Shown here: piece after piece, positions 4,207 through 36,055 of the stretch
Layout: each line of letters opens with the position of its first letter
Position numbering within the stretch: the first letter of the stretch is position 1
Source of the DNA: a phage
Sequence record: PZ754631.1
Strand: one strand, 5' to 3'
Length of the DNA stretch: 51,438 nt
The notes under the pieces: generated by a model
The model's input: the letters and a program-made list of their open reading frames with translations, nothing else
Database searches by the model: none
Told to the model about the DNA's origin: nothing
Position numbers and translations under genes: made by a program

Positions 4207-5319
4207 ATGAAGGCAAAACAAAGATTTGATAGCGTCCAGGTTAAGGCGCATTTTGATGATAATGGCTTTTTAGTAGATCGCCCAATTGTGGCGCGAATTG
4301 GTTTGCAGGAGTACCGCACACCGTATGGAATCAGACGAGAGTTCCGACCAGCGTCAGAAGTGTTTAAGGCGGATTCGCTTGCTACGTTCGCAGGCAAGCC
4401 GATCACTATCGGTCACGTCACAGTGACGCCAGATAATGCGGATCAGGTTGTTGTTGGTTCATGCGCTGGTGCTGGTGTTCCAAATGGTGTTGGCGTTGAA
4501 GTTCCGTTAAGTATTTACTCAAAGCGAGCAATTGAGAGCGCAAAAAAGAAAGACACGGCGGAAATTTCAGTTGGTTACACATCAATTGATATTGATAAAC
4601 CAGGTTGGGGCAATAATAAAACTGGCGATTACTTGTTTGAGGAAGACATTAAGGAAGACTGGAAGCCTGACTCCCCTGATTGGGTTAAATTTGACGCCAT
4701 TCAGACGAATATCCGTGTTAATCACATTGCGCTCGTCTTTCGTGGTCGCGCTGGAATTGCCAAATTAAATCTTGATAGTGAACAGGATTTTCCGTATAGT
4801 GACGAGGTTCTAAATGACAAAGGAGATGAGGAAATGACAGTAAAAATTAAACTTGATGGCGCGGTAGAATTTGATGTTCCAAAGGCCGTTGCTGATCATA
4901 TTGAGGCGTTAAAGGCAGATGCAAAAGCTGCAACCGAAAAGGCTGATGGCCTTGAGGCCGAGCGCGACGCCCTGAAAACTAAAGTCGATGGCATTCCGAC
5001 GCAGATTGCAGAAGCTGTTAAGAAGGCAAAGACTGACGCAGAAGAACACGCCAAGCTAGTTGCAGATGCAACTGAAATTGGCATCAAGTGTGACGGCTTG
5101 GACGCTAAAGCGATCAAAGTTGCTTACGTCAAAGAAGTCACTGGCGCTGATATTTCAGAAAAAGCCGATGCATATATTGAAACAGCTTTTGACCTTGCGA
5201 AGCAGTCTGATAAAATGGCGGCGCAGCGTAAATCTGTTAAGGGCGATTCTTTCGAGTCTGGCAAGAGTGAAAAAACCGACTCCCTTGATCCGACTGCGCG
5301 TTTGAAAAAACTTAAATAA
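4207..5319 (+). CDS. head scaffolding protein (possible protease-scaffold fusion)
   Basis: 370 aa; C-terminal half is Ala/Lys/Glu/Asp-rich predicted coiled coil; located between morphogenesis gene and capsid. Confidence 0.55.
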   Translation: MKAKQRFDSVQVKAHFDDNGFLVDRPIVARIGLQEYRTPYGIRREFRPASEVFKADSLATFAGKPITIGHVTVTPDNADQVVVGSCAGAGVPNGVGVEVPLSIYSKRAIESAKKKDTAEISVGYTSIDIDKPGWGNNKTGDYLFEEDIKEDWKPDSPDWVKFDAIQTNIRVNHIALVFRGRAGIAKLNLDSEQDFPYSDEVLNDKGDEEMTVKIKLDGAVEFDVPKAVADHIEALKADAKAATEKADGLEAERDALKTKVDGIPTQIAEAVKKAKTDAEEHAKLVADATEIGIKCDGLDAKAIKVAYVKEVTGADISEKADAYIETAFDLAKQSDKMAAQRKSVKGDSFESGKSEKTDSLDPTARLKKLK

Positions 5320-5331
5320 GGAGAAATAAAC

Positions 5332-5844
5332 ATGGCTACAATTGGAGCAAGTTATTTTGCTGTAATGTCTCGTGCGTTACCTGGTCAGGTTTCTGACACT
5401 TCAGCTTATAATATTGATGGCGCTTGTGTTCTTGAGAATGCGGCAGGCAATCAGAATAAGTCTGTTTTTGTTGGTGTGGCGGTCCAGCATGGCGGCGTTG
5501 ATGCGATGGGTAATAAACTGATCAAGCCTATGGCGGCAAGCGGCAAGGCTTACGGCGTTGCAATTCGATCTCACTTTCAGACAACTTCGTCTGACGGTCG
5601 AATGATTTATGAATCTGGCGGCGGAATCAACGTAATGACTGAGGGGCGTGTTTGGATGTTGGCTAAAGACGCCACCGCGCCAGCGTTCGGCACTACAATC
5701 AAGCTGTCTGATGATGGTCAGGTTGATACAGGGTCTGGCACTATCGAAACAAACTGGATCGCAACTGGTGACTTTACCGAGTTTCAAGGCTTGAAGCTGG
5801 TAGAGGTTCAGGTGCAAAAAGTTCCGGCAGTTTCTGCTAGTTAA
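5332..5844 (+). CDS. head-associated structural protein, paralog 1 (decoration/cement-like)
   Basis: 170 aa; shares pattern GVAVQ..G.VWML..G..I.L..DG with the next gene; followed by intrinsic terminator. Confidence 0.5.
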   Translation: MATIGASYFAVMSRALPGQVSDTSAYNIDGACVLENAAGNQNKSVFVGVAVQHGGVDAMGNKLIKPMAASGKAYGVAIRSHFQTTSSDGRMIYESGGGINVMTEGRVWMLAKDATAPAFGTTIKLSDDGQVDTGSGTIETNWIATGDFTEFQGLKLVEVQVQKVPAVSAS

Positions 5845-5851
5845 TAAATAT

Positions 5852-5876
5852 GGCGCTCACTGAGCGCCTTTTTTAT
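5852..5876 (+). terminator. intrinsic terminator
   Basis: GGCGCTCA/TGAGCGCC stem plus TTTTTT. Confidence 0.6.
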
Positions 5877-5889
5877 ATTTGGAGTTATC

Positions 5890-6324
5890 ATGAGTGATTA
5901 TTCAGTCATTGTTGGCGCTGAGTCGCCAGGGTGCATGGTCGATTCTTCAATAATGGTGATTAACGGATCTTTCGTGTGCGGAGATGAATTTATTGCGCCA
6001 GGTAAGATTGTGCGACTATCACATATAACAAATGGATACAAAATAGCAAGTGTTAATGGGGATCTAGTTATTGGCGTGGCAGTAAGGCCGCCGGACTCGT
6101 GCATATATGAGGAGGGTGATACCGTTAATGTGGTTAGTAGAGGTAGTGTGTGGTGCTTAACTTCTGAGAGCGAAGCGCCAGAATATGGAGATAAAGTATT
6201 TGTAACTCAAGATGGAGATGCGGCATACAGTGAAGGAGACTTGCTGATTGGTTGGATCTTTACTGGCGAACATGTAAAGGTTGATCATGATTCATATATT
6301 GTCGGGGTAAGCATTAGCGCATAA
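5890..6324 (+). CDS. head-associated structural protein, paralog 2
   Basis: 144 aa; same motif order as 5332-5844 (IGVAVR..G.VWCL..G.KVFV.QDG); immediately upstream of major capsid gene. Confidence 0.5.
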   Translation: MSDYSVIVGAESPGCMVDSSIMVINGSFVCGDEFIAPGKIVRLSHITNGYKIASVNGDLVIGVAVRPPDSCIYEEGDTVNVVSRGSVWCLTSESEAPEYGDKVFVTQDGDAAYSEGDLLIGWIFTGEHVKVDHDSYIVGVSISA

Positions 6325-20640: not shown

Positions 20641-20868
20641 TTACAGACTGCAATCAGCGTTTTTAAAGTTATCAATGCTTACCCACTGAAAATTAAACGG
20701 ATAGCCAGCCTTAACAAGAGTGTGTTCGCCAACTCGTTTTACTCCAAAAATAGCAACTGAATACTGCATTCCGCTATTTTCATAAATAGCCGAGCATTCA
20801 CGCTTAGGCATATTTGCACATCCAGTCAGTGCAACGGTGGCAATCAAAACGGCGATTAACTTTTTCAT
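20641..20868 (-). CDS. small outer-membrane lipoprotein, candidate superinfection-exclusion factor (Cor/Llp-like)
   Basis: 75 aa; signal peptide plus lipobox LTGC; own promoter module upstream; located just past receptor-binding genes on opposite strand. Confidence 0.55.
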   Translation of the reverse strand: MKKLIAVLIATVALTGCANMPKRECSAIYENSGMQYSVAIFGVKRVGEHTLVKAGYPFNFQWVSIDNFKNADCSL

Positions 20869-20899
20869 TTTTGTGTCTCCTTAGTTGTTGTTGGTTGCA

Positions 20900-20943
20900 A
20901 CTATACACGATCTTGCGGTGGGCGTTTAGCAAAAAGTGCTATT
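20900..20943 (-). promoter_or_regulatory. early promoter cassette (minus) driving Cor-like lipoprotein
   Basis: on minus strand AATAGCACTTTTTGCTAAA, 19-bp spacer, TATAGT. Confidence 0.5.
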
Positions 20944-21038
20944 CTTGTTCTTTTTGTTATCCGGTGTTCTCAAATCTGCGGAGTCTTAAATTTAGCTCAA
21001 AAAGTGAACAACAATAGAGCGCAATACATACAGATAAA

Positions 21039-21120
21039 TATATACATACATATAAATCAATAAGTTAGTAGTATATATGTTTATATTTGTTTTTCTTGTT
21101 ATCTATGTTTTGTGTGATTT
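21039..21120 (+). repeat. ~75 bp AT-rich element with IHF-consensus core, copy 1
   Basis: exact 16-mer AAATCAATAAGTTAGT (21054-21069) matching WATCAANNNNTTR, followed by TATATATGT..TTATATTTGTTT..CTTGTT shared with copy 2. Confidence 0.6.
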
Positions 21121-21311
21121 TGTGTGTCTGGTGATTTTTTATGTGGTTGTGTATGTGTCAGTGTCTGTGTGTGTCTATATATCTATATCCGGCGCAAATT
21201 GAGGAACAAGAGAACAAAAAGACAACAAAGATATTTATCAATCACTTACATGTAAGTTTTGTTATCAAAGCTGGACAGAACGTTGCTAGAACAGAAAAAA
21301 CAAAACAACTA

Positions 21312-21339
21312 TTGACTAAACGCATCAAATAGCTACAAT
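21312..21339 (+). promoter_or_regulatory. sigma70-type promoter for recombination module
   Basis: TTGACT, 16-bp spacer, TACAAT; ATG about 30 nt downstream. Confidence 0.55.
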
Positions 21340-21368
21340 GCAGGCATACCAACCAACGAGGGCAAATC

Positions 21369-23536: not shown

Positions 23537-23989
23537 ATGCATATTATTACTGGTGAGATCCGAAAAGAGCCGCGAGTAAAGCAAATGCCTAACGGCAGCA
23601 CACTTTATGTAGTTGAACTTTCAGAGCGATACAAAGATAAAGATGGAAACTGGCAATATACAAACTACAGTTTCTTTTTTAATGCGAAAACTGACGGACT
23701 TAATGGTTGGTATGCTGAGGCGTTCCAGGTTGGCAAGGTTATTTCTGTTTCTTGTGACACGCTGCGCATTGAAACGCGCGAATATAACGGAAAGATGTAT
23801 TCAAGTTTAATGCCAGGCGGATTTGCAAATCTTATCTTCAGTCAGCGCGGGGAAAGCCAGCAACAATATCAGCAGCGAACGCAAGGAGGATGGGGGCAGC
23901 CACAACAACAGAATCAACCGCAACAACCGCAACAGCCAAGACAAAGCAATCAGCCTCCTATGGACTTTGACGACGACATTCCTTTCTGA
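23537..23989 (+). CDS. ssb: single-stranded DNA-binding protein
   Basis: 150 aa; OB-fold-like N-terminus, Gln/Pro-rich linker and acidic C-terminal tail DFDDDIPF. Confidence 0.85.
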   Translation: MHIITGEIRKEPRVKQMPNGSTLYVVELSERYKDKDGNWQYTNYSFFFNAKTDGLNGWYAEAFQVGKVISVSCDTLRIETREYNGKMYSSLMPGGFANLIFSQRGESQQQYQQRTQGGWGQPQQQNQPQQPQQPRQSNQPPMDFDDDIPF

Positions 23990-23994
23990 TCAAC

Positions 23995-24018
23995 AAAGGG
24001 GCATTACGCCCCTTTTTC
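23995..24018. terminator. bidirectional terminator between ssb and leftward cluster
   Basis: GGGGC-ATTAC-GCCCC flanked by A- and T-runs. Confidence 0.6.
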
Positions 24019-24261
24019 ACTTTCAGCCATCCCAAGCACGGCAATAACCTTAACAGCAATTCGCTTTGCAAGTTCAGTTTGATGAGCGTTAAGTTTTCCA
24101 GTGGTCATTATTGACAACATTCCGCTCATACTTCCAAGCCCGTTAAAATCTGACATTGCCGATTTCATGATTGAAATTGGTGAGTGACCTTCATCAGCTA
24201 TTGTGTGCGCTCTCTCTGACAGGTCTTTAACTACCTGATCAATTCCTTCACTTTTCGTCAT
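24004..24261 (-). CDS. hypothetical protein
   Basis: 85 aa; last gene of leftward tail-fibre-downstream cluster; ends at bidirectional terminator. Confidence 0.45.
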   Translation of the reverse strand: MTKSEGIDQVVKDLSERAHTIADEGHSPISIMKSAMSDFNGLGSMSGMLSIMTTGKLNAHQTELAKRIAVKVIAVLGMAESEKGA

Positions 24262-24739
24262 TTGCTTTTCCTTCAGGAGTTGATTGCTGTTCTGGCATTA
24301 CAGGCCACGGGCTAATTGATTCCCTTTCTGCTACTGGCTTTTCAGGTTCAATTCCTAAAAACTTTCCTACAAACTCACCAACAAAATTTGAGCTATCGCT
24401 TACATAAACATGCATCCTGTCTAGATCTGCAACCGTAACGCTATTTGGTGCGATCATGATCCTCTGTTGGTGAAAACCGATATACATCACATTAGCCGGA
24501 CGCTCAAGAGTCCCCATATTTGGCGCAATTACGCCCATTATCCAACAATAATGAATGTTGCCATCAAGCGGCTCACATCCAGCGTTAAGCCAGTTTACTT
24601 TCTGGTGAGGAAACGCCATTGATGAATCAGTAGCATCACGCCGTAACGACCATTTAACGCCGCCAATCTCAATGATTTGTTTCGGCCTCATTCCGTTGAA
24701 TTGAGTCACGCCAGCGCCATTTTGATTAATGTTTTGCAT
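24248..24739 (-). CDS. hypothetical protein
   Basis: 163 aa; overlaps neighbours by a few nt (translational coupling). Confidence 0.5.
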   Translation of the reverse strand: MQNINQNGAGVTQFNGMRPKQIIEIGGVKWSLRRDATDSSMAFPHQKVNWLNAGCEPLDGNIHYCWIMGVIAPNMGTLERPANVMYIGFHQQRIMIAPNSVTVADLDRMHVYVSDSSNFVGEFVGKFLGIEPEKPVAERESISPWPVMPEQQSTPEGKANDEK

Positions 24740-24753
24740 ATCGGTTAACCTTT

Positions 24754-25077
24754 TTACATTGATTTCATTTTACGCAATGCGCAGATACAAGCGGCAGCAA
24801 GATCGGTTAATTCTTTCTCAATGCCATGATGCGAGCCGTCTGCCTTTTCGGTCATTAGCTCTTTGTATTCCATTTCTACAATCGACATTAAGCCGCCTGG
24901 CTTGTCAATGTGCGCGTCCCAGGTTTTAGGATGGTGCTTAGTTCTTTCAATAACACTTCCCATAACTGAATCATGTTCATGATCTCGATCATAATCTCCA
25001 TCATGGTCCTTTCCTCCAATTACTACTCGCGGCAAATGCACGCGCGGTAAATGATAGCCAGCGACACGAATTTTCAT
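24754..25077 (-). CDS. hypothetical His-rich protein
   Basis: 107 aa with many His/Asp (HDGDYDRDHEHD, HH pairs); RBS AAGGGGA after a terminator. Confidence 0.5.
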   Translation of the reverse strand: MKIRVAGYHLPRVHLPRVVIGGKDHDGDYDRDHEHDSVMGSVIERTKHHPKTWDAHIDKPGGLMSIVEMEYKELMTEKADGSHHGIEKELTDLAAACICALRKMKSM

Positions 25078-25093
25078 GAGTATATCCCCTTAT

Positions 25094-25117
25094 AAAAAAG
25101 CGCCCCGAAAGGCGCTT
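25094..25117 (-). terminator. intrinsic terminator (minus strand) inside leftward cluster
   Basis: on minus strand AGCGCC-loop-GGCGCT followed by T-run. Confidence 0.55.
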
Positions 25118-25123
25118 GATTTA

Positions 25124-25828
25124 TTAGCAACCGCAGCAGCCAGTCGGCGGAGTCGCCGGAGTAGGCAACTTGAAGTTTACCAATTGCTCTACATGGTTGA
25201 TTTTGCAATTCAGTGCGGCGGTCTGGTTTGCCTGAGAAAGAGCAAAACGCGCTTCCTGCAACTGAGCTTTCATATCGCAAATCAAAACAGCCTGAGAATC
25301 AGCAAACTGTTGACGAATCAGATCTCGCGTTGCGTTACCTTGTCGCTCAATGTTCAGGTTAGTCTCGCAGCAACATCTCTCCGCTGCAATCTGCGCTTGA
25401 TAGGAACGCTCAAGAGCATTAACATCAGCAGCATTAATCGCAGCAACCGTCTGGTTAGTACCGCTAACAATCGCGGTATTCAGTCCGGCGAAACCTTGCA
25501 CCGATGCAAGCAGGTTTTGCGTATTCTGGCTGGTAATGCCGTTAAAGGTTGATGCGGCGGAGCGCTCAACGGCAAGGTTTGTGGAATTTTGACCTTGCAG
25601 AGTTTGCAGCCCCAGGTTGTTTACACCTGTCTGGATGTTATTAATACCATCAAGAACAGCGTTAGCACCGACGGCAACAGCAGCGCCATCACCACCATAG
25701 CCACCACGACCATTAAAGCCGTTACCAAACCATGACCCAATCAGGCCGCCAACAGCACCGCCAAGACCAGCCGCGCCAGCTTCGCCACCAAAACCACCAC
25801 CAGTAGGGAGTAAAGTCATATCTGACAT
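25124..25828 (-). CDS. Gly-rich protein with C-terminal Cys clusters
   Basis: start at MSDM with RBS AGAGGA; N-terminal poly-Gly region, central Gln/Asn/Thr-rich coiled region, CCC and CCGC clusters. Confidence 0.55.
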   Translation of the reverse strand: MSDMTLLPTGGGFGGEAGAAGLGGAVGGLIGSWFGNGFNGRGGYGGDGAAVAVGANAVLDGINNIQTGVNNLGLQTLQGQNSTNLAVERSAASTFNGITSQNTQNLLASVQGFAGLNTAIVSGTNQTVAAINAADVNALERSYQAQIAAERCCCETNLNIERQGNATRDLIRQQFADSQAVLICDMKAQLQEARFALSQANQTAALNCKINHVEQLVNFKLPTPATPPTGCCGC

Positions 25829-26006
25829 AGTAAATTCCTCTTTGACGTTAAAAAAATTAAAAAAAGTTTGCAACATTTATGTTACGACAAAGAGTATGCG
25901 CCAAATTACCAGGAATAGATATAAAACATTTGTAAGCGATATGTCAGCAAATGGCATAAAGACGAAAAAAGGCGCAGCCGTAGCCGCGCCTTGTGATTAT
26001 TTTTTG

Positions 26007-27977
26007 TTAACTCTCAAGAGTTGTGGGCTTGTTGATCAATGCAGAAACAGCCGCCTTCAGTTCTTCAACCTCCTTTTCAAGTTTTGATATTCTTTCTTTG
26101 TTTTCAACATCACGCGCACGTAGAGCCTTTATTGCAGCCAAGCCATCAAGAAGCATCGGAGTTTGGTCAAGATGCCAAAAACCCCCAACATCCTTAACAT
26201 ATTCTCGGTCGATCTGCTTAATTTGCTGTGATATAACCCCTCTTCTTGTTGCGCCTCTGATTTCTTTAGTATGATGCTCATCTTTAAACTTGAATAGCTT
26301 AAACTCCATTCTATCTATGTTTGATAGCGCGCATTCAACGTCAAGATTTCCTAGTACATCATTCATTCTTTCATCAGACACCGCCGACGTCGTTACTTGC
26401 GCCCATGCAGACCACGAAGAAGCATTTGTCTGTATCCTTGTATAAATGCGGTTAGATGTGTCGTAGAATCTCTGTTGGTTCCACCTGCCATTAACACCTT
26501 GTGATGCAGTTTTTCCTTGAGATAATCCTTGCGTTGTTTGTGTAAATAGAGAACCATACGCATTACCAGAATAAGGTGCGTTTGAGTAAGCCCCACCAAT
26601 ATTAAGCCATCCTTGAGGAACAACATTAAAATCCTTTACATCACCAATACCAAGTATATTTGAATTTCCGTTAGGAGAAAGACCACCATCAAACGATACA
26701 TACATCCTCAGTGTTGAGTCTGGCCTTGGTATAGTAACTATGTTTCTTCCAGTGCTGTTATTCCCATTCGCAAAGAACACATTTAAAGCAGTTGACCTGT
26801 CATTCTCAAAGGATATTCTTCTTCCTATTGTGCTGTCATCAACCTGACTAGTTTTTAATGTTATAGCAGGCCAGGTTGTATGTACTGTCATACCAGCAAA
26901 AGTAGGTGAGTGTTGACTATTAAGCCCGATATTGTTACGAATCCCATTTGCATCTTTCGCACCTGTTCCACCTTTATCTATTGGTAAAGCTATACCACTA
27001 TTTGATGTAGAATCCCATGCACCCCAATCGCCATTATTTTTTACGAAAATTCGCTTTGTTCCATCAGCACTTAAAACGAAAGTTTCACCAGATTCTTCAG
27101 TTGTCTGCTTCAATCTGTCTACGCTTAGGTTTTTTCTTGCCTCACCTTTATCTGCAACATCGCTAAGGTTGTTGTTTTTGTTAAGCATATTTGCCGGATT
27201 TATGCTATCCGCATATTCTTTCGCCTTATCTTCAGAAGCCTTAGCGGCATTTTTTGAAGCCAGAGCATCAGAAGCAGATCTGGCAGCTTCGCTTTTGCTT
27301 GTACTCGCCGCGATTTCTGAATTTTTGGCATTTGTCTCGGACGTCTTTGCTGCATTCTGAGAAGCGAGCGCAGCATCCTGAGAATTTTTAGCGGCAATCT
27401 TGCTTTCATTGGCTGCATTCTCTGAATTTTTGGCATTTGTCTCCGACGTCTTTGCTGCGATCTTGCTCGCGTTGGCTGCGTTTTCTGACTCTTTGGCATT
27501 AGTCTCTGACGCTTCTGCTTCGTTCTTTGAATTAAGCGCATCAGCAGCAGATCTTGCCGCGGCATCCTTACTTTGATTCGCAGACGCTGCGTTTTCTTCC
27601 ACCTGTTTAGCCAAATCCTGATAATGCTTCCAATCAAACGTCTTAAAAAATTCCAGCGCTTCCCCGATCTCTGATTCTTTACTCTGATAGTAGCGCAATG
27701 TTTCAGCTACATCTTGAGCAAGCCCATCAACAGTTATTGAGTCATGAAGCAAGATCGCGTAATTTGAGCGAGTAACTACCGCGCCACCAGTTGTAATTGC
27801 ACGAATGCTTGTATCGTTAATAACTTCAGTTATCACGGCAATCTGCAACGGCTGAGTTAAAAATACAATAGTTGCACCAGGGCGAATGAGCGTTAGTTGC
27901 TCTCGCCATTTCGTGTCGTATCCAGTGATATAACCTTGAGCGTCCATTGACGCTTGTCCGGTTCTGTAAATTGCCAT
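26007..27977 (-). CDS. tail fibre protein with C-terminal intramolecular-chaperone-like domain
   Basis: 656 aa (start at MAIYRTG with RBS AGGAGA); Ala/Ser/Asn/Lys/Glu-rich tandem repeats; C-terminal SDERMN segment resembling S74 self-cleaving chaperone domains. Confidence 0.7.
   Translation of the reverse strand: MAIYRTGQASMDAQGYITGYDTKWREQLTLIRPGATIVFLTQPLQIAVITEVINDTSIRAITTGGAVVTRSNYAILLHDSITVDGLAQDVAETLRYYQSKESEIGEALEFFKTFDWKHYQDLAKQVEENAASANQSKDAAARSAADALNSKNEAEASETNAKESENAANASKIAAKTSETNAKNSENAANESKIAAKNSQDAALASQNAAKTSETNAKNSEIAASTSKSEAARSASDALASKNAAKASEDKAKEYADSINPANMLNKNNNLSDVADKGEARKNLSVDRLKQTTEESGETFVLSADGTKRIFVKNNGDWGAWDSTSNSGIALPIDKGGTGAKDANGIRNNIGLNSQHSPTFAGMTVHTTWPAITLKTSQVDDSTIGRRISFENDRSTALNVFFANGNNSTGRNIVTIPRPDSTLRMYVSFDGGLSPNGNSNILGIGDVKDFNVVPQGWLNIGGAYSNAPYSGNAYGSLFTQTTQGLSQGKTASQGVNGRWNQQRFYDTSNRIYTRIQTNASSWSAWAQVTTSAVSDERMNDVLGNLDVECALSNIDRMEFKLFKFKDEHHTKEIRGATRRGVISQQIKQIDREYVKDVGGFWHLDQTPMLLDGLAAIKALRARDVENKERISKLEKEVEELKAAVSALINKPTTLES
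27250..27560 (-). repeat. in-frame tandem repeats inside tail fibre gene (~105 bp period with sub-repeats)
   Basis: near-identical 38-mers TCTGAATTTTTGGCATTTGTCTC(G/C)GACGTCTTTGCTGC at ~27316 and ~27421; protein-level NAK(N/E)SENAAN(A/E)SKIAAK repeats. Confidence 0.6.
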
Positions 27978-28035
27978 GCGTTTTCTCCTATGTTGCATGT
28001 TAATGTCAATGCAGATAATAGCATTTGCTAAGGCC

Positions 28036-28058
28036 AAAAAAAACCCCGCAATGCGGGG
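28036..28058 (-). terminator. intrinsic terminator (minus strand) between primase and tail fibre
   Basis: CCCCGC-AAT-GCGGGG with run of T on minus strand. Confidence 0.6.
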
Positions 28059-34962: not shown

Positions 34963-35178
34963 ATGAAAGATTTTTTAAACGCTGCAACTTCCGGCACTGG
35001 CGGCGCGTCAATCACTGGCGCTGTAACTGGTCAAACAACCATTGCAATAGCCAGCTTCGTTTTGATGGCTGCATTTGGTATGTGGGGCGCTTATCTTCGC
35101 TGGCGTGATAGTAAGGCGCTACGTGACGCGCTTGAATGCGGTGATATTAAGAAAGCTATTGAGATCAGAGGTAAATAA
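34963..35178 (+). CDS. holin (probable pinholin)
   Basis: 71 aa; hydrophobic TM segment(s) and charged C-terminus; directly upstream of SAR endolysin. Confidence 0.7.
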
Positions 35179-35666
35179 TGAGTATAAAACAAAGAGTGAC
35201 CGCTGCGGCTTTTGGCGTTGCTCTTGCCCTTACTTCTCCGCTACTGGAGGAAATAGAAGGAGTAAAACATAAGCCTTACAAAGATATTGCTGGGATATGG
35301 ACGGTTTGCGCCGGAATAACTGGACCTGACGTAATACCAGGCAAAACGTACACACAAAGAGAGTGCGATGCGCTACTGGCAAAGCATATCAAGATCGCAA
35401 AGGATGAAGTTGATAAACGTGTGAAGGTTGACATTCCTGATACAATGCGCGCGGCGATGTATTCATTCACATACAATGCTGGCACTGGTGCTTTTAGAAA
35501 TTCAACTATGCTTAAGCTGATTAATAACGGTCGTTATATGGAAGCGTGCAATCAGTTATGGCGATGGACAAAATACACCAATCCAAAAACAGGAAAGAAA
35601 GAAACGTCTAAAGGACTGCGTAACCGCCGCGCGGTGGAATTTAAATATTGCATTAAGGATCTGTAA
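35178..35666 (+). CDS. SAR endolysin (lysozyme, E-x8-D-x5-T catalytic triad)
   Basis: weakly hydrophobic Gly/Ala-rich N-terminal SAR-like segment; [16 protein letters not shown] triad spacing. Confidence 0.8.
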
Positions 35667-35668
35667 TC

Positions 35669-36055
35669 ATGAGAAAGTTATCAGCAATCGCGATCGCTGT
35701 TATTTTGTCTGGATGTTCAAGCGTTACGCCACTGACCGGATTGATAGGAAGCAAGCCTGAGATAACAGCACAGGCAGGAGCAGAGAACGTAAAGCAGACC
35801 GTTGGCGTTACCGCAAAGCAGGACACCAGTACAAAACAGGAAACTACAATAAAGGAATCTGCGGTTGATAAGGTGGACACGTCCAGCAAGAAGGATTTCA
35901 CTACATCAACCATTCAGGCTAACACCATCAAGGCTGATAAAATCCAGGTCGTGCAAGGTAATAACGGCAGATGGTACGACCCCATAATCATATGCGTGGT
36001 TGTGCTCATTGTGCTGATTTGGCTTTACTGGAGGGAAAAGAAAAAGGAGGCTTAA
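35669..36055 (+). CDS. unimolecular spanin (T1 gp11-like)
   Basis: N-terminal lipobox LSGC plus C-terminal TM helix (IIICVVVLIVLIWLYW); last gene of lysis cassette. Confidence 0.75.
   Translation: MRKLSAIAIAVILSGCSSVTPLTGLIGSKPEITAQAGAENVKQTVGVTAKQDTSTKQETTIKESAVDKVDTSSKKDFTTSTIQANTIKADKIQVVQGNNGRWYDPIIICVVVLIVLIWLYWREKKKEA

What the first reader, a model, noticed from the sequence alone, without database searches (positions are those of the whole stretch)
24004..25828. Four-gene leftward cluster of unusual-composition proteins downstream of the tail fibre
Co-transcribed after the tail fibre are a 235-aa protein with a poly-Gly N-terminus, Gln/Asn-rich coiled region and CCC/CCGC cysteine clusters; a His/Asp-rich 107-aa protein; and 163-aa and 85-aa proteins without recognisable motifs. 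A terminator plus RBS sits inside the cluster. They may be fibre assembly or attachment factors or metal-binding structural proteins, but the compositions also resemble translocation domains of bacteriocin-like proteins.
Basis: partly seen in the sequence, partly recalled or inferred. Interest (0 to 1): 0.5.

Follow-up and report, generated by a model that had tools for sequence, protein, structure and literature searches.

The report
Mobile four-gene phage accessory operon
The four odd-looking genes after the tail fibre are real, but they are a self-contained, dispensable four-gene cassette of unknown function that recurs in the same order in many unrelated phages, often nowhere near a tail fibre.

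Summary
The window is a T1-like coliphage (Hanrivervirus, Drexlerviridae). All four ORFs exist as described, are under purifying selection (dN/dS 0.08-0.26), and have the reported compositions.

The link to the tail fibre is positional only:
- A strong terminator follows the fibre gene.
- Phage T1 has the same SSB-fibre junction without these genes.
- The cassette, always in the order P4-P3-P2-P1, also lies after coat genes, between terminase and portal, in an early region, and beside lysis genes, in more than 10 phage lineages.
- It decays or is deleted in viable phages (Bas07 nonsense mutation, 9NA, Seurat, SHIN8, T5-like remnants).

A 5' hairpin and a hairpin after gene 1 are conserved, so P4 is probably made in excess.

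The four products:
- P4: conserved N-terminal octapeptide, Gly/aromatic hydrophobic segment, long polar helix, invariant CCC.
- P3: His-rich, with a weak and inconclusive MazG-like signature.
- P2: a beta fold with no structural match.
- P1: small, no detectable relatives of known function.

No family, defence, structure or literature match assigns a function. My best guess, at low confidence, is a late-acting module aimed at the host envelope. The main rival is a virion fibre with its assembly factors.

The parts
25969..25992 (-). Intrinsic terminator directly after the lateral tail fibre gene. It separates the fibre transcript from the cassette.
   Evidence: 10-bp GC-rich stem plus U-run. 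Folding energy -19.7 kcal/mol, z -4.8, and 0 of 200 shuffles fold as well.
25893..25898 (-). -10-like hexamer CATACT, a putative cassette promoter with no recognisable -35.
   Evidence: It occupies the same position, 7 nt upstream of the hairpin, as TATTCT, TATACT, TATGCT and TAGAAT in other lineages. L022-24 have a canonical TTGTCA-N16-TAGAAT. The consensus scan did not call it in the window, so the assignment is an inference.
25870..25885 (-). Conserved hairpin at the predicted 5' end of the P4 mRNA (GTAAC-ATAAAT-GTTGC).
   Evidence: The pattern occurs once in the window. A stem of at least 5 bp is found at the equivalent place in 14 of 15 lineages against 2.1 expected from shuffles, with at least 8 different stem sequences. 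On its own it is thermodynamically weak in the window.
25124..25828 (-). P4, 234 aa: conserved N-terminal MSDMTLLP, a Gly/aromatic hydrophobic low-complexity segment, a long polar helix with QGFAGLN and invariant CCC motifs, and a Pro/Cys tail.
   Evidence: PHROG 9288, 'unknown function'. Found in 230 phage records.
25098..25117 (-). Hairpin with U-run between P4 and P3, a likely attenuator or 3' stabiliser that favours P4 expression.
   Evidence: -13.9 kcal/mol, z -4.2. A GC-rich hairpin is present at this junction in all 8 diverged loci examined and is annotated as a terminator in phage Sasha.
24754..25077 (-). P3, 107 aa: variable His/Asp-rich N-terminus, and a conserved C-terminal helical domain (HP.TW ... 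IVEMEYxEL ... KELTDLAAAC).
   Evidence: Weak PRA-PH/MazG Pfam hits in 11 and 4 of 40 homologues. The signal is lost with a broader profile.
24248..24739 (-). P2, 163 aa: antiparallel beta sheet plus two helices, a disordered tail carrying a PWP motif, and conserved H45 C55 C65 H90 H110.
24004..24261 (-). P1, 85 aa: small protein whose start overlaps the end of P2, suggesting translational coupling.
   Evidence: PHROG 7239, 'unknown function'. No PDB match.
23995..24015 (.). Bidirectional terminator shared by the cassette and the convergent SSB gene.
   Evidence: -13.6 kcal/mol, z -4.2. Phage T1 has a bidirectional terminator at the same SSB-fibre junction.

Best explanation
The four genes form an autonomous, horizontally mobile accessory operon (moron-like), inserted here between the SSB gene and the lateral tail fibre gene. 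They work as a unit that does not depend on the virion type.

The first gene is bracketed by a 5' hairpin and a 3' hairpin with U-run. I infer that P4 is made in excess and P3, P2 and P1 at lower levels.

P4 is the effector or building block. It has a conserved N-terminal octapeptide, a Gly/aromatic hydrophobic segment resembling glycine-zipper or fusion-peptide membrane-inserting segments, a long, poorly charged helix and an invariant triple cysteine.

P3 (His-rich), P2 (new beta fold with a His/Cys cluster) and P1 are probably partner or maturation factors, possibly metal-dependent.

Most likely mechanism (inferred, not shown): the module is expressed with the late genes. P4 accumulates in the cytoplasm, reaches the envelope of the Gram-negative host when the holin opens the inner membrane, as endolysins do, and acts there at lysis or egress. 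The periplasm is oxidising, so its cysteines could cross-link there.

Shown: the genes are real, conserved, linked, mobile and dispensable, with conserved RNA hairpins and no known family.
Inferred: differential expression, late timing, envelope target and metal use.
For: Module and mobility:
- 40 of 44 loci that carry P2 have P4-P3-P2-P1 in the same order.
- Contexts include: after lateral tail fibres; after the coat gene; between terminase and portal; in an early region of Yersinia phage X1; and beside endolysin, holin and spanin genes in three distant MAG contigs.
- Phage T1 lacks all four genes at the same junction.

Real genes: dN/dS 0.08-0.26.

Dispensable:
- Bas07 has a Q78 stop codon in P4.
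- Decayed copies occur in a 9NA-like locus, L037, Shigella phage 2019SD1 and T5-like phages.
- Seurat and SHIN8 carry deletion fusions of the fibre gene to cassette remnants.

Expression architecture:
- Terminator after the fibre gene, and a hairpin after P4 in 8 of 8 lineages.
- 5' hairpin in 14 of 15 lineages against 2.1 expected, with different stem sequences, preceded by -10-like boxes.

P4 features.

Late or envelope leaning: the cassette is co-oriented with late genes in most contexts and adjacent to lysis genes in all three most distant lineages.

No defence or anti-defence, Pfam, NCBIfam or PDB assignment.
Against: - No signal peptide or clear transmembrane segment. The best 19-residue Kyte-Doolittle mean in P4 is only 1.13.
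- The window's own holin, endolysin and spanin genes lie 9 kb away, and phages without the cassette lyse normally.
- Adjacency to lysis genes could simply reflect insertion at the ends of late operons.
- The promoter in the window has no -35, and the 5' hairpin is weak on its own.
- There are no expression, localisation or proteomic data.
- The roles of P3, P2 and P1 are guesses. The P2 His/Cys positions and the second acidic motif of P3 are not kept in the most distant homologues.
Confidence: 0.4

Rival explanations
1. P4 is a non-essential virion appendage (a whisker, head fibre or side fibre). P3, P2 and P1 are its folding or assembly factors. The cysteines cross-link the fibre after release.
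For: - The cassette usually lies inside or at the edge of structural modules and is co-oriented with them.
- P4 has an elongated helical architecture with a conserved N-terminal peptide that could act as an anchor.
- Its expression signals suggest abundance.
- Non-essential fibres are known elsewhere; T4 fibritin is an example (my own knowledge).
Against: - One invariant N-terminal peptide would have to dock onto unrelated virions: T1-like, 9NA-like, Nonagvirus, eiAU and Yersinia vB_YenM records.
- Yersinia phage X1 carries the cassette outside its structural genes.
- No tail or fibre PHROG or Pfam match beyond a marginal tape-measure hit (E 0.007).
- A His-rich helical protein and a Cys/His beta protein do not resemble known fibre chaperones.
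- I found no virion proteomics that detects P4.
Confidence: 0.2
2. It is a counter-defence or host-takeover module. P3 is a MazG-like nucleotide pyrophosphohydrolase (as Atd1 hydrolyses (p)ppGpp), and the other proteins are partners or further inhibitors.
For: - Enterobacterial P3 proteins carry E70xxE73-x15-E89xxD92.
- 11 and 4 of 40 homologues give weak PRA-PH and MazG Pfam hits.
- There is a weak PDB hit to 2p06, AF_0060.
- Phage MazG-like Atd1 counters TIR-based immunity (bioRxiv 10.1101/2022.06.09.495361).
- The patchy, accessory distribution is typical of counter-defence genes.
Against: - All hits are below the curated cut-offs.
- The second motif becomes xxxH or is lost, and E73 becomes Q, in distant homologues.
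- A broader profile loses all MazG and PDB signal.
- The genomic contexts are late, not early.
- PADLOC finds nothing.
- It does not explain an abundant Gly/Cys-rich P4.
Confidence: 0.12
3. The products are tail fibre assembly or attachment factors specific to the adjacent lateral tail fibre.
For: The cassette lies immediately downstream of a lateral tail fibre gene in Hanrivervirus, Nonagvirus, eiAU and several metagenomic phages. P4 remnants travel with S74-type fibre genes into T5-like phages.
Against: - A strong terminator lies between the fibre gene and P4.
- The same cassette occurs away from fibre genes.
- It sits next to very different fibre alleles.
- T1 has the fibre without the cassette.
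- The fibre has its own S74 chaperone domain.
- Bas07, whose P4 carries a stop codon, is the only BASEL Drexlerviridae phage that plaques robustly on O16-restored K-12, which its authors attribute to its lateral tail fibres (PMC8594841).
Confidence: 0.05
4. P4 is a bacteriocin-like protein released at lysis. It would enter neighbouring cells through a Gly-rich disordered translocation region with an N-terminal TonB-box-like peptide.
For: - P4 has a disordered Gly-rich N-terminus followed by a long helix.
- By eye, the N-terminal MSDMTLL resembles TonB boxes of group B colicins. This comes from memory and was not tested.
Against: - No Pfam, NCBIfam or PDB match to colicin, pyocin or microcin families at E up to 1.
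- No cytotoxic domain, immunity gene or lysis gene in the cassette.
- The C-terminal part is just a helix and a short tail.
Confidence: 0.05

Closest known systems
Phage morons / accessory gene cassettes (autonomous transcription units inserted between conserved genes)
   Same: It is inserted between two genes that are adjacent in T1. It has its own promoter-like element and terminators, a patchy distribution and frequent loss, and it moves between unrelated phages.
   Different: Classical morons are usually single genes of temperate phages expressed from the prophage. This one is a fixed four-gene operon in virulent phages, with conserved mRNA hairpins. It shows no marked GC shift: 0.43-0.48 against about 0.44 for the window.
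Spanins (Rz/Rz1, T1 gp11) and other holin-dependent envelope effectors
   Same: This is a functional analogy only. P4 has a long helix, a Pro-rich tail with cysteines and a hydrophobic Gly-rich end. The cassette is adjacent to lysis genes in three distant lineages.
   Different: P4 has no transmembrane anchor or lipobox and no sequence similarity to spanins. The phages already encode spanins. The cassette also contains three further cytoplasmic proteins.
All-alpha NTP pyrophosphohydrolases (MazG / PRA-PH HisE; phage Atd1)
   Same: P3 is small and helical. Enterobacterial members carry EXXE-x15-EXXD, with weak Pfam PRA-PH and MazG hits.
   Different: The hits are below threshold. The motif is not conserved across the family, and a His-rich N-terminal extension is added.
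Colicin translocation domains
   Same: P4 has a Gly-rich, intrinsically disordered N-terminus.
   Different: There is no family match, no receptor-binding or killing domain, and no immunity protein.
Tail fibre assembly chaperones (lambda Tfa, T4 gp38 and gp57A)
   Same: In some phages the cassette lies downstream of a fibre gene, and P1 is small.
   Different: There is no homology. The cassette is not tied to fibre genes, and the adjacent fibre has an intramolecular S74 chaperone domain.

Membership tests
Tail fibre assembly/attachment factor | Sequence membership in a known chaperone or fibre family (Caudo_TAP/Tfa, gp38, gp57A, fibre PHROGs) | tested here: not met
   Pfam gives no relevant hit at E up to 1. 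All four proteins fall in PHROGs of unknown function. P4 alone gives a marginal tape-measure hit at E 0.007.
Tail fibre assembly/attachment factor | Obligatory genomic linkage to a fibre gene | tested here: not met
   The cassette lies after coat genes, between terminase and portal and in an early region. T1 has the fibre without the cassette.
Tail fibre assembly/attachment factor | Required for fibre function or adsorption | not testable with these tools
   Indirect evidence only. Bas07, with a P4 stop codon, plaques robustly on O16-restored K-12, which its authors attribute to its lateral tail fibres.
Moron-like autonomous accessory cassette | Inserted between genes that are adjacent in a related phage | tested here: met
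   In T1 the SSB gene abuts the fibre gene through a bidirectional terminator. tblastn finds none of the four proteins in T1.
Moron-like autonomous accessory cassette | Own promoter and terminator | tested here: inconclusive
   The terminators are strong. The window's promoter is only a -10-like box. Canonical promoters are seen at the same place in other lineages. No transcript data exist.
Moron-like autonomous accessory cassette | Dispensable, with a patchy distribution | tested here: met
   Nonsense, frameshift and deletion variants occur in viable phages.
MazG / all-alpha NTP pyrophosphohydrolase (P3) | EXXE(12-28)EXXD metal-binding motif | tested here: inconclusive
   The motif is present in enterobacterial members as E70xxE73-x15-E89xxD92. 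The second motif is lost, or has D changed to H, in L048-L050 and L012. E73 becomes Q in L046 and L047.
MazG / all-alpha NTP pyrophosphohydrolase (P3) | Significant profile match to the family | tested here: not met
   The best Pfam E-values are 4.4e-4 (PRA-PH) and 3.3e-3 (MazG), reported in the summary without bit scores, and the window protein itself matches neither family. PDB 2p06 scores only E 0.045. A broader profile gives no hit.
MazG / all-alpha NTP pyrophosphohydrolase (P3) | Pyrophosphohydrolase activity | not testable with these tools
   Needs an enzyme assay.
Colicin-like bacteriocin (P4) | Disordered Gly-rich translocation region | tested here: met
   Residues 1-49 are 41% Gly with pLDDT below 50.
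Colicin-like bacteriocin (P4) | Match to receptor-binding or cytotoxic domains, plus a cognate immunity gene | tested here: not met
   No Pfam, NCBIfam or PDB match. None of P3, P2 or P1 matches an immunity family.
Anti-phage defence system component | Match to PADLOC models | tested here: not met
   No hit for any of the four proteins at E up to 1.

The most novel reading that the evidence does not exclude
The cassette encodes a previously unrecognised kind of phage effector system. An abundant, low-complexity protein with a fusion-peptide-like N-terminus and a triple cysteine (P4) would be matured or loaded by three dedicated small proteins, one with a new fold and one His-rich and metal-binding. 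It would then assemble on or in the Gram-negative envelope, or into an intracellular scaffold, late in infection. Because it does not depend on the virion type, it can hop between phage families.
Probability: 0.25. Interest if true: 0.75.

Novelty: categorically new. Interest (0 to 1): 0.55.

Why it matters
More than 200 sequenced phages carry this cassette or its first gene. They infect Escherichia, Salmonella, Shigella, Klebsiella, Yersinia, Edwardsiella, Hafnia and Aeromonas and include model BASEL phages. Three distant phage-like contigs from metagenomes carry it too. Public records label its genes inconsistently and without support, as sugar-binding protein, TerL, pyrophosphatase, matrix protein or transcriptional regulator.

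Treating it as one mobile, co-regulated unit turns four scattered hypothetical genes into a single testable system. Natural knockouts already exist: Bas07 against Bas06, and Seurat, SHIN8 and 9NA. If the module acts on the host envelope, on lysis or on progeny survival, it would add a new class of late phage accessory function. It would also matter for engineering therapeutic T1-like and Nonagvirus phages. If it proves to be a decorative fibre, the gain is modest.

Tried and rejected
Searches that found nothing useful:
- Pfam, PHROGs, NCBIfam and PADLOC scans of all four proteins gave no functional assignment.
- Profile searches of the PDB for P2, P4, P1 and the P3 domain gave nothing credible.
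- The ricin B hit to P4 (E 0.4) is a low-complexity artefact. It may lie behind the 'sugar-binding' label in BASEL records.
- A profile search of 1.84 billion representative proteins with P2 found only 47 clusters, all of the same small family.
- A P2 pattern scan of 185,579 reference genomes found no relatives.
- Rfam found nothing in the region.
- The A6 alignment was too diverse for a pattern scan.

Literature: I found no description of these genes and no clean virion proteomics covering them in work on T1-like phages, 9g, eiAU, BASEL or accessory-gene screens.

Ideas considered and dropped:
- A papain- or transglutaminase-like Cys-His-Asp reading of P2. The fold does not match, and the residues are not kept in L048.
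- A true heptad coiled coil for P4. There is no clear periodicity.
- A transmembrane anchor in P4. The hydropathy is too low.
- The 250-aa upstream start for P4. It is not conserved.
Full report
**What the window is.** Bases 23900-26100 are 95-98% identical to Hanrivervirus phages (Drexlerviridae, Tempevirinae) such as grams, JLBYU09, JakobBernoulli (Bas07) and KarlJaspers (Bas06). Gene order matches phage T1: Cor lipoprotein, RecE-like exonuclease, Erf, SSB, then on the opposite strand the lateral tail fibre, primase and a regulator.

**Check of the observation.** The four leftward ORFs exist:
- P4, 25124-25828, 234 aa.
- P3, 24754-25077, 107 aa.
- P2, 24248-24739, 163 aa.
- P1, 24004-24261, 85 aa. 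Its start overlaps the end of P2 by 14 nt.

The compositions are as described:
- P4 residues 1-49 are 41% Gly.
- P4 residues 50-150 are rich in A, N, Q, V, G, L and T, with only 7% charged residues.
- The tail is Pro/Thr/Cys-rich.
- CCC at 152-154 is invariant.
- P3 is His/Asp-rich at its N-terminus.

A hairpin with a U-run followed by a Shine-Dalgarno sequence lies between P4 and P3. All four are real genes: against three diverged loci, dN/dS is 0.08-0.26 with saturated dS.

'Co-transcribed after the tail fibre' does not hold. The strongest terminator in the region (-19.7 kcal/mol, z -4.8) follows the fibre stop codon directly.

**The cassette is a module.** tblastn finds P4 in 230 phage records and P2 in 140. 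Across 44 loci that carry P2, 40 have P4-P3-P2-P1 in the same order and with similar sizes. The contexts differ widely:
- After lateral tail fibres: Hanrivervirus, Nonagvirus JenK1, Edwardsiella phage eiAU-183 and metagenomic phages with S74-type fibres.
- After the major capsid gene: Segz_1, L012 and L046.
- Between large terminase and portal: Sasha, with a Sasha-like arrangement (portal gene downstream of the cassette) in L038.
- As the only rightward unit in a leftward early region: Yersinia phage X1.
- Among hypothetical genes: Aeromonas phage phiWae15.
- Beside endolysin, holin and spanin genes: three distant phage-like contigs binned with Alphaproteobacteria, Paludibacteraceae and Desulfovibrionaceae MAGs.

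T1 lacks all four genes. There the SSB gene meets the fibre gene through a bidirectional terminator. A P2 pattern scan of 185,579 reference bacterial and archaeal genomes found no relatives. So the adjacency to the fibre in this window is positional.

**It is dispensable.**
- Bas07 has a CAA-to-TAA stop at P4 codon 78. It is still the only BASEL Drexlerviridae phage that plaques robustly on K-12 with restored O16 antigen (PMC8594841).
- A 9NA-like locus keeps only a truncated P2 plus P1. L037 lacks P4. Shigella phage 2019SD1 has an inverted P4 fragment and no P3.
- Seurat and SHIN8 carry deletions that fuse the fibre ORF to the C-terminal remnants of P2 and P4 respectively.
- T5-like Epseptimaviruses carry only frameshifted P4 remnants behind an S74-type fibre gene. 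These look like passengers of fibre-module exchange.

**Conserved expression architecture.**
- A GC-rich hairpin, usually with a U-run, separates gene 1 from gene 2 in all eight diverged loci examined. It is annotated as a terminator in Sasha.
- Upstream of P4, 14 of 15 lineages have a stem of at least 5 bp in a 44-nt window, against 2.1 expected from dinucleotide shuffles.
- At least eight different stem sequences occur, for example GTAAC/GTTAC, GTAGTC/GACTAC, CCACC/GGTGG, GTGGC/GCCAC and TGTAGC/GCTACA.
- In most lineages where a -10-like hexamer can be recognised, the stem starts about 5-7 nt after it (window, L004, L007, L008, L010, L012, L022-L029, L032). L022-24 have a canonical TTGTCA-N16-TAGAAT promoter.
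- In the window the -10-like box is CATACT (25893-25898) with no -35. The hairpin (25870-25885) contains a G-U pair and is weak on its own.
- My inference is a separate, stabilised P4 message with attenuated read-through into P3-P1, so that P4 is the abundant product.

**The proteins.**

*P4.* AlphaFold2 with 78 sequences gives disorder for residues 1-49, a single helix for 50-220 (pLDDT about 60-84, pTM 0.21) and a disordered tail. The features kept even in the most distant homologues are:
- an N-terminal M-x-[DS]-x-[TINL]... peptide;
- GG.IGSWFGNG;
- one to three QGF[AS]GLN motifs;
- CCC;
- ATRxL.

The maximum 19-residue hydropathy is 1.13, below that of a typical transmembrane segment. There is no clear heptad periodicity.

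*P3.* Enterobacterial members show E70xxE73-x15-E89xxD92. Of 40 homologues, 11 give weak PRA-PH hits and 4 give weak MazG hits in Pfam (best E 4.4e-4), and there is a PDB hit to 2p06 at E 0.045. In distant homologues the second motif is lost or has D changed to H, and E73 becomes Q. A broader profile loses all such hits. Membership in the MazG family is therefore inconclusive. The His-rich N-terminus recurs in distant lineages (L047, L049).

*P2.* The AlphaFold2 model (pLDDT 77, core about 90) is an antiparallel sheet with two helices.
- BFVD returns only the P2 family.
- The family has just 47 representative clusters among 1.84 billion proteins.
- H45, C55, C65, H90 and H110 are conserved in most members but not in L048.

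*P1.* A small protein with no detectable relatives of known function.

PADLOC, NCBIfam and PHROGs give no function for any of the four. I found no paper describing these genes (and the earlier literature searches).

**Interpretation.** What is shown: a real, conserved, tightly linked, mobile and dispensable four-gene operon with conserved mRNA hairpins and no relation to known families. What is inferred: P4 is produced in excess, expression is late, and the target is a conserved host structure rather than the virion.

The last point follows from two observations. One invariant N-terminal peptide is unlikely to dock onto unrelated virions. The cassette is also usually co-oriented with late genes, and it lies next to lysis genes in the three most distant lineages.

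My preferred mechanism is that P4 accumulates in the cytoplasm, reaches the envelope when the holin opens the membrane, and acts there through its Gly/aromatic hydrophobic end and cross-linkable cysteines. P3, P2 and P1 would be low-abundance partner or maturation factors, possibly metal-dependent.
- Autonomous accessory cassette, not fibre-specific: about 0.8.
- This particular envelope mechanism: about 0.2-0.25.

The rivals are listed separately: a non-essential virion fibre with assembly factors, a MazG-type counter-defence module, fibre chaperones and a bacteriocin-like protein.

**Comparison with known systems and novelty.**
- The cassette behaves like a moron in being an insertion with its own signals, patchy and dispensable. 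It differs in being a fixed four-gene operon of virulent phages.
- Its resemblance to spanins, colicin translocation domains and MazG enzymes is architectural or compositional only. Each family test was either not met or inconclusive.
- None of the four proteins can be tied to a known family or fold and I found no description, so I rate it as lying outside known kinds of system.
- That rating rests on the absence of matches, not on a demonstrated new mechanism. Interest is moderate (0.55).

Noticed in passing
L001 (phage JakobBernoulli/Bas07), positions 5225-5929; corresponds to window 25124-25828: Bas07 has a CAA-to-TAA nonsense mutation at P4 codon 78, and its record annotates the gene as two CDS. 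According to the BASEL paper, this is the one BASEL Drexlerviridae phage that plaques robustly on O16-restored K-12.
   Followed up: yes
L005 3749-4339 (Salmonella phage polluks) and L014 2791-3393 (phage SE24): T5-like Epseptimaviruses carry frameshifted remnants of P4 directly after an S74-type lateral tail fibre gene. This suggests that fibre modules, with flanking DNA, are exchanged between small siphoviruses and T5-like phages.
   Followed up: partly
L051 3114-3722 (phage SHIN8) and L052 1884-3692 (phage Seurat): The annotated 'tail fiber protein' ORFs end in sequence homologous to the C-terminus of P4 (SHIN8) or of P2 (Seurat). These look like deletion fusions that removed part of the fibre gene and part of the cassette.
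   Followed up: partly
Public records matching window 23900-26100: 19 matching records are named 'Campylobacter phage' with host C. jejuni (A16a, A15b and others). The two listed (A16a, A15b) are about 97% identical to this T1-like coliphage region, and A118 encodes an identical P2. They are probably coliphage contaminants or mis-assigned hosts.
   Followed up: no
Public annotations of the four genes: The same genes are labelled 'putative sugar-binding protein', 'putative TerL protein', 'putative pyrophosphatase', 'matrix protein' and 'transcriptional regulator' in different records. None of these labels is supported by the searches made here.
   Followed up: yes
window 26007-28037 (-): The lateral tail fibre (676 aa) has a C-terminal Peptidase_S74 intramolecular chaperone domain (residues 554-614; E 3e-4, 21.4 bits, just under Pfam's 22-bit cut-off) and an Ala/Ser/Asn/Glu-rich repetitive N-terminal half. 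Only the first 340 or so residues resemble the T1 fibre (38% identity).
   Followed up: partly
window 20641-20868 (-): A 75-aa lipoprotein is 53% identical to T1 Cor, the superinfection exclusion protein. It lies opposite to the tail genes, as in T1.
   Followed up: partly
window 20870-21368: A non-coding stretch of about 500 bp between cor and the recE-like gene is AT-rich, with short TG/TA-rich tandem repeats (21072-21126, 21208-21229). It may be a regulatory region.
   Followed up: no
window 34963-35983 (+): The phage's own lysis cassette (holin, endolysin and a T1 gp11-like unimolecular spanin) lies 9 kb from the finding.
   Followed up: partly
P0160 (223 aa) and L017 (Shigella phage 2019SD1): There are further rearranged cassette variants. 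One is an ORF fusing an N-terminal part of P4 to the C-terminal part of P2. The other is a locus with an inverted P4 fragment and no P3.
   Followed up: no
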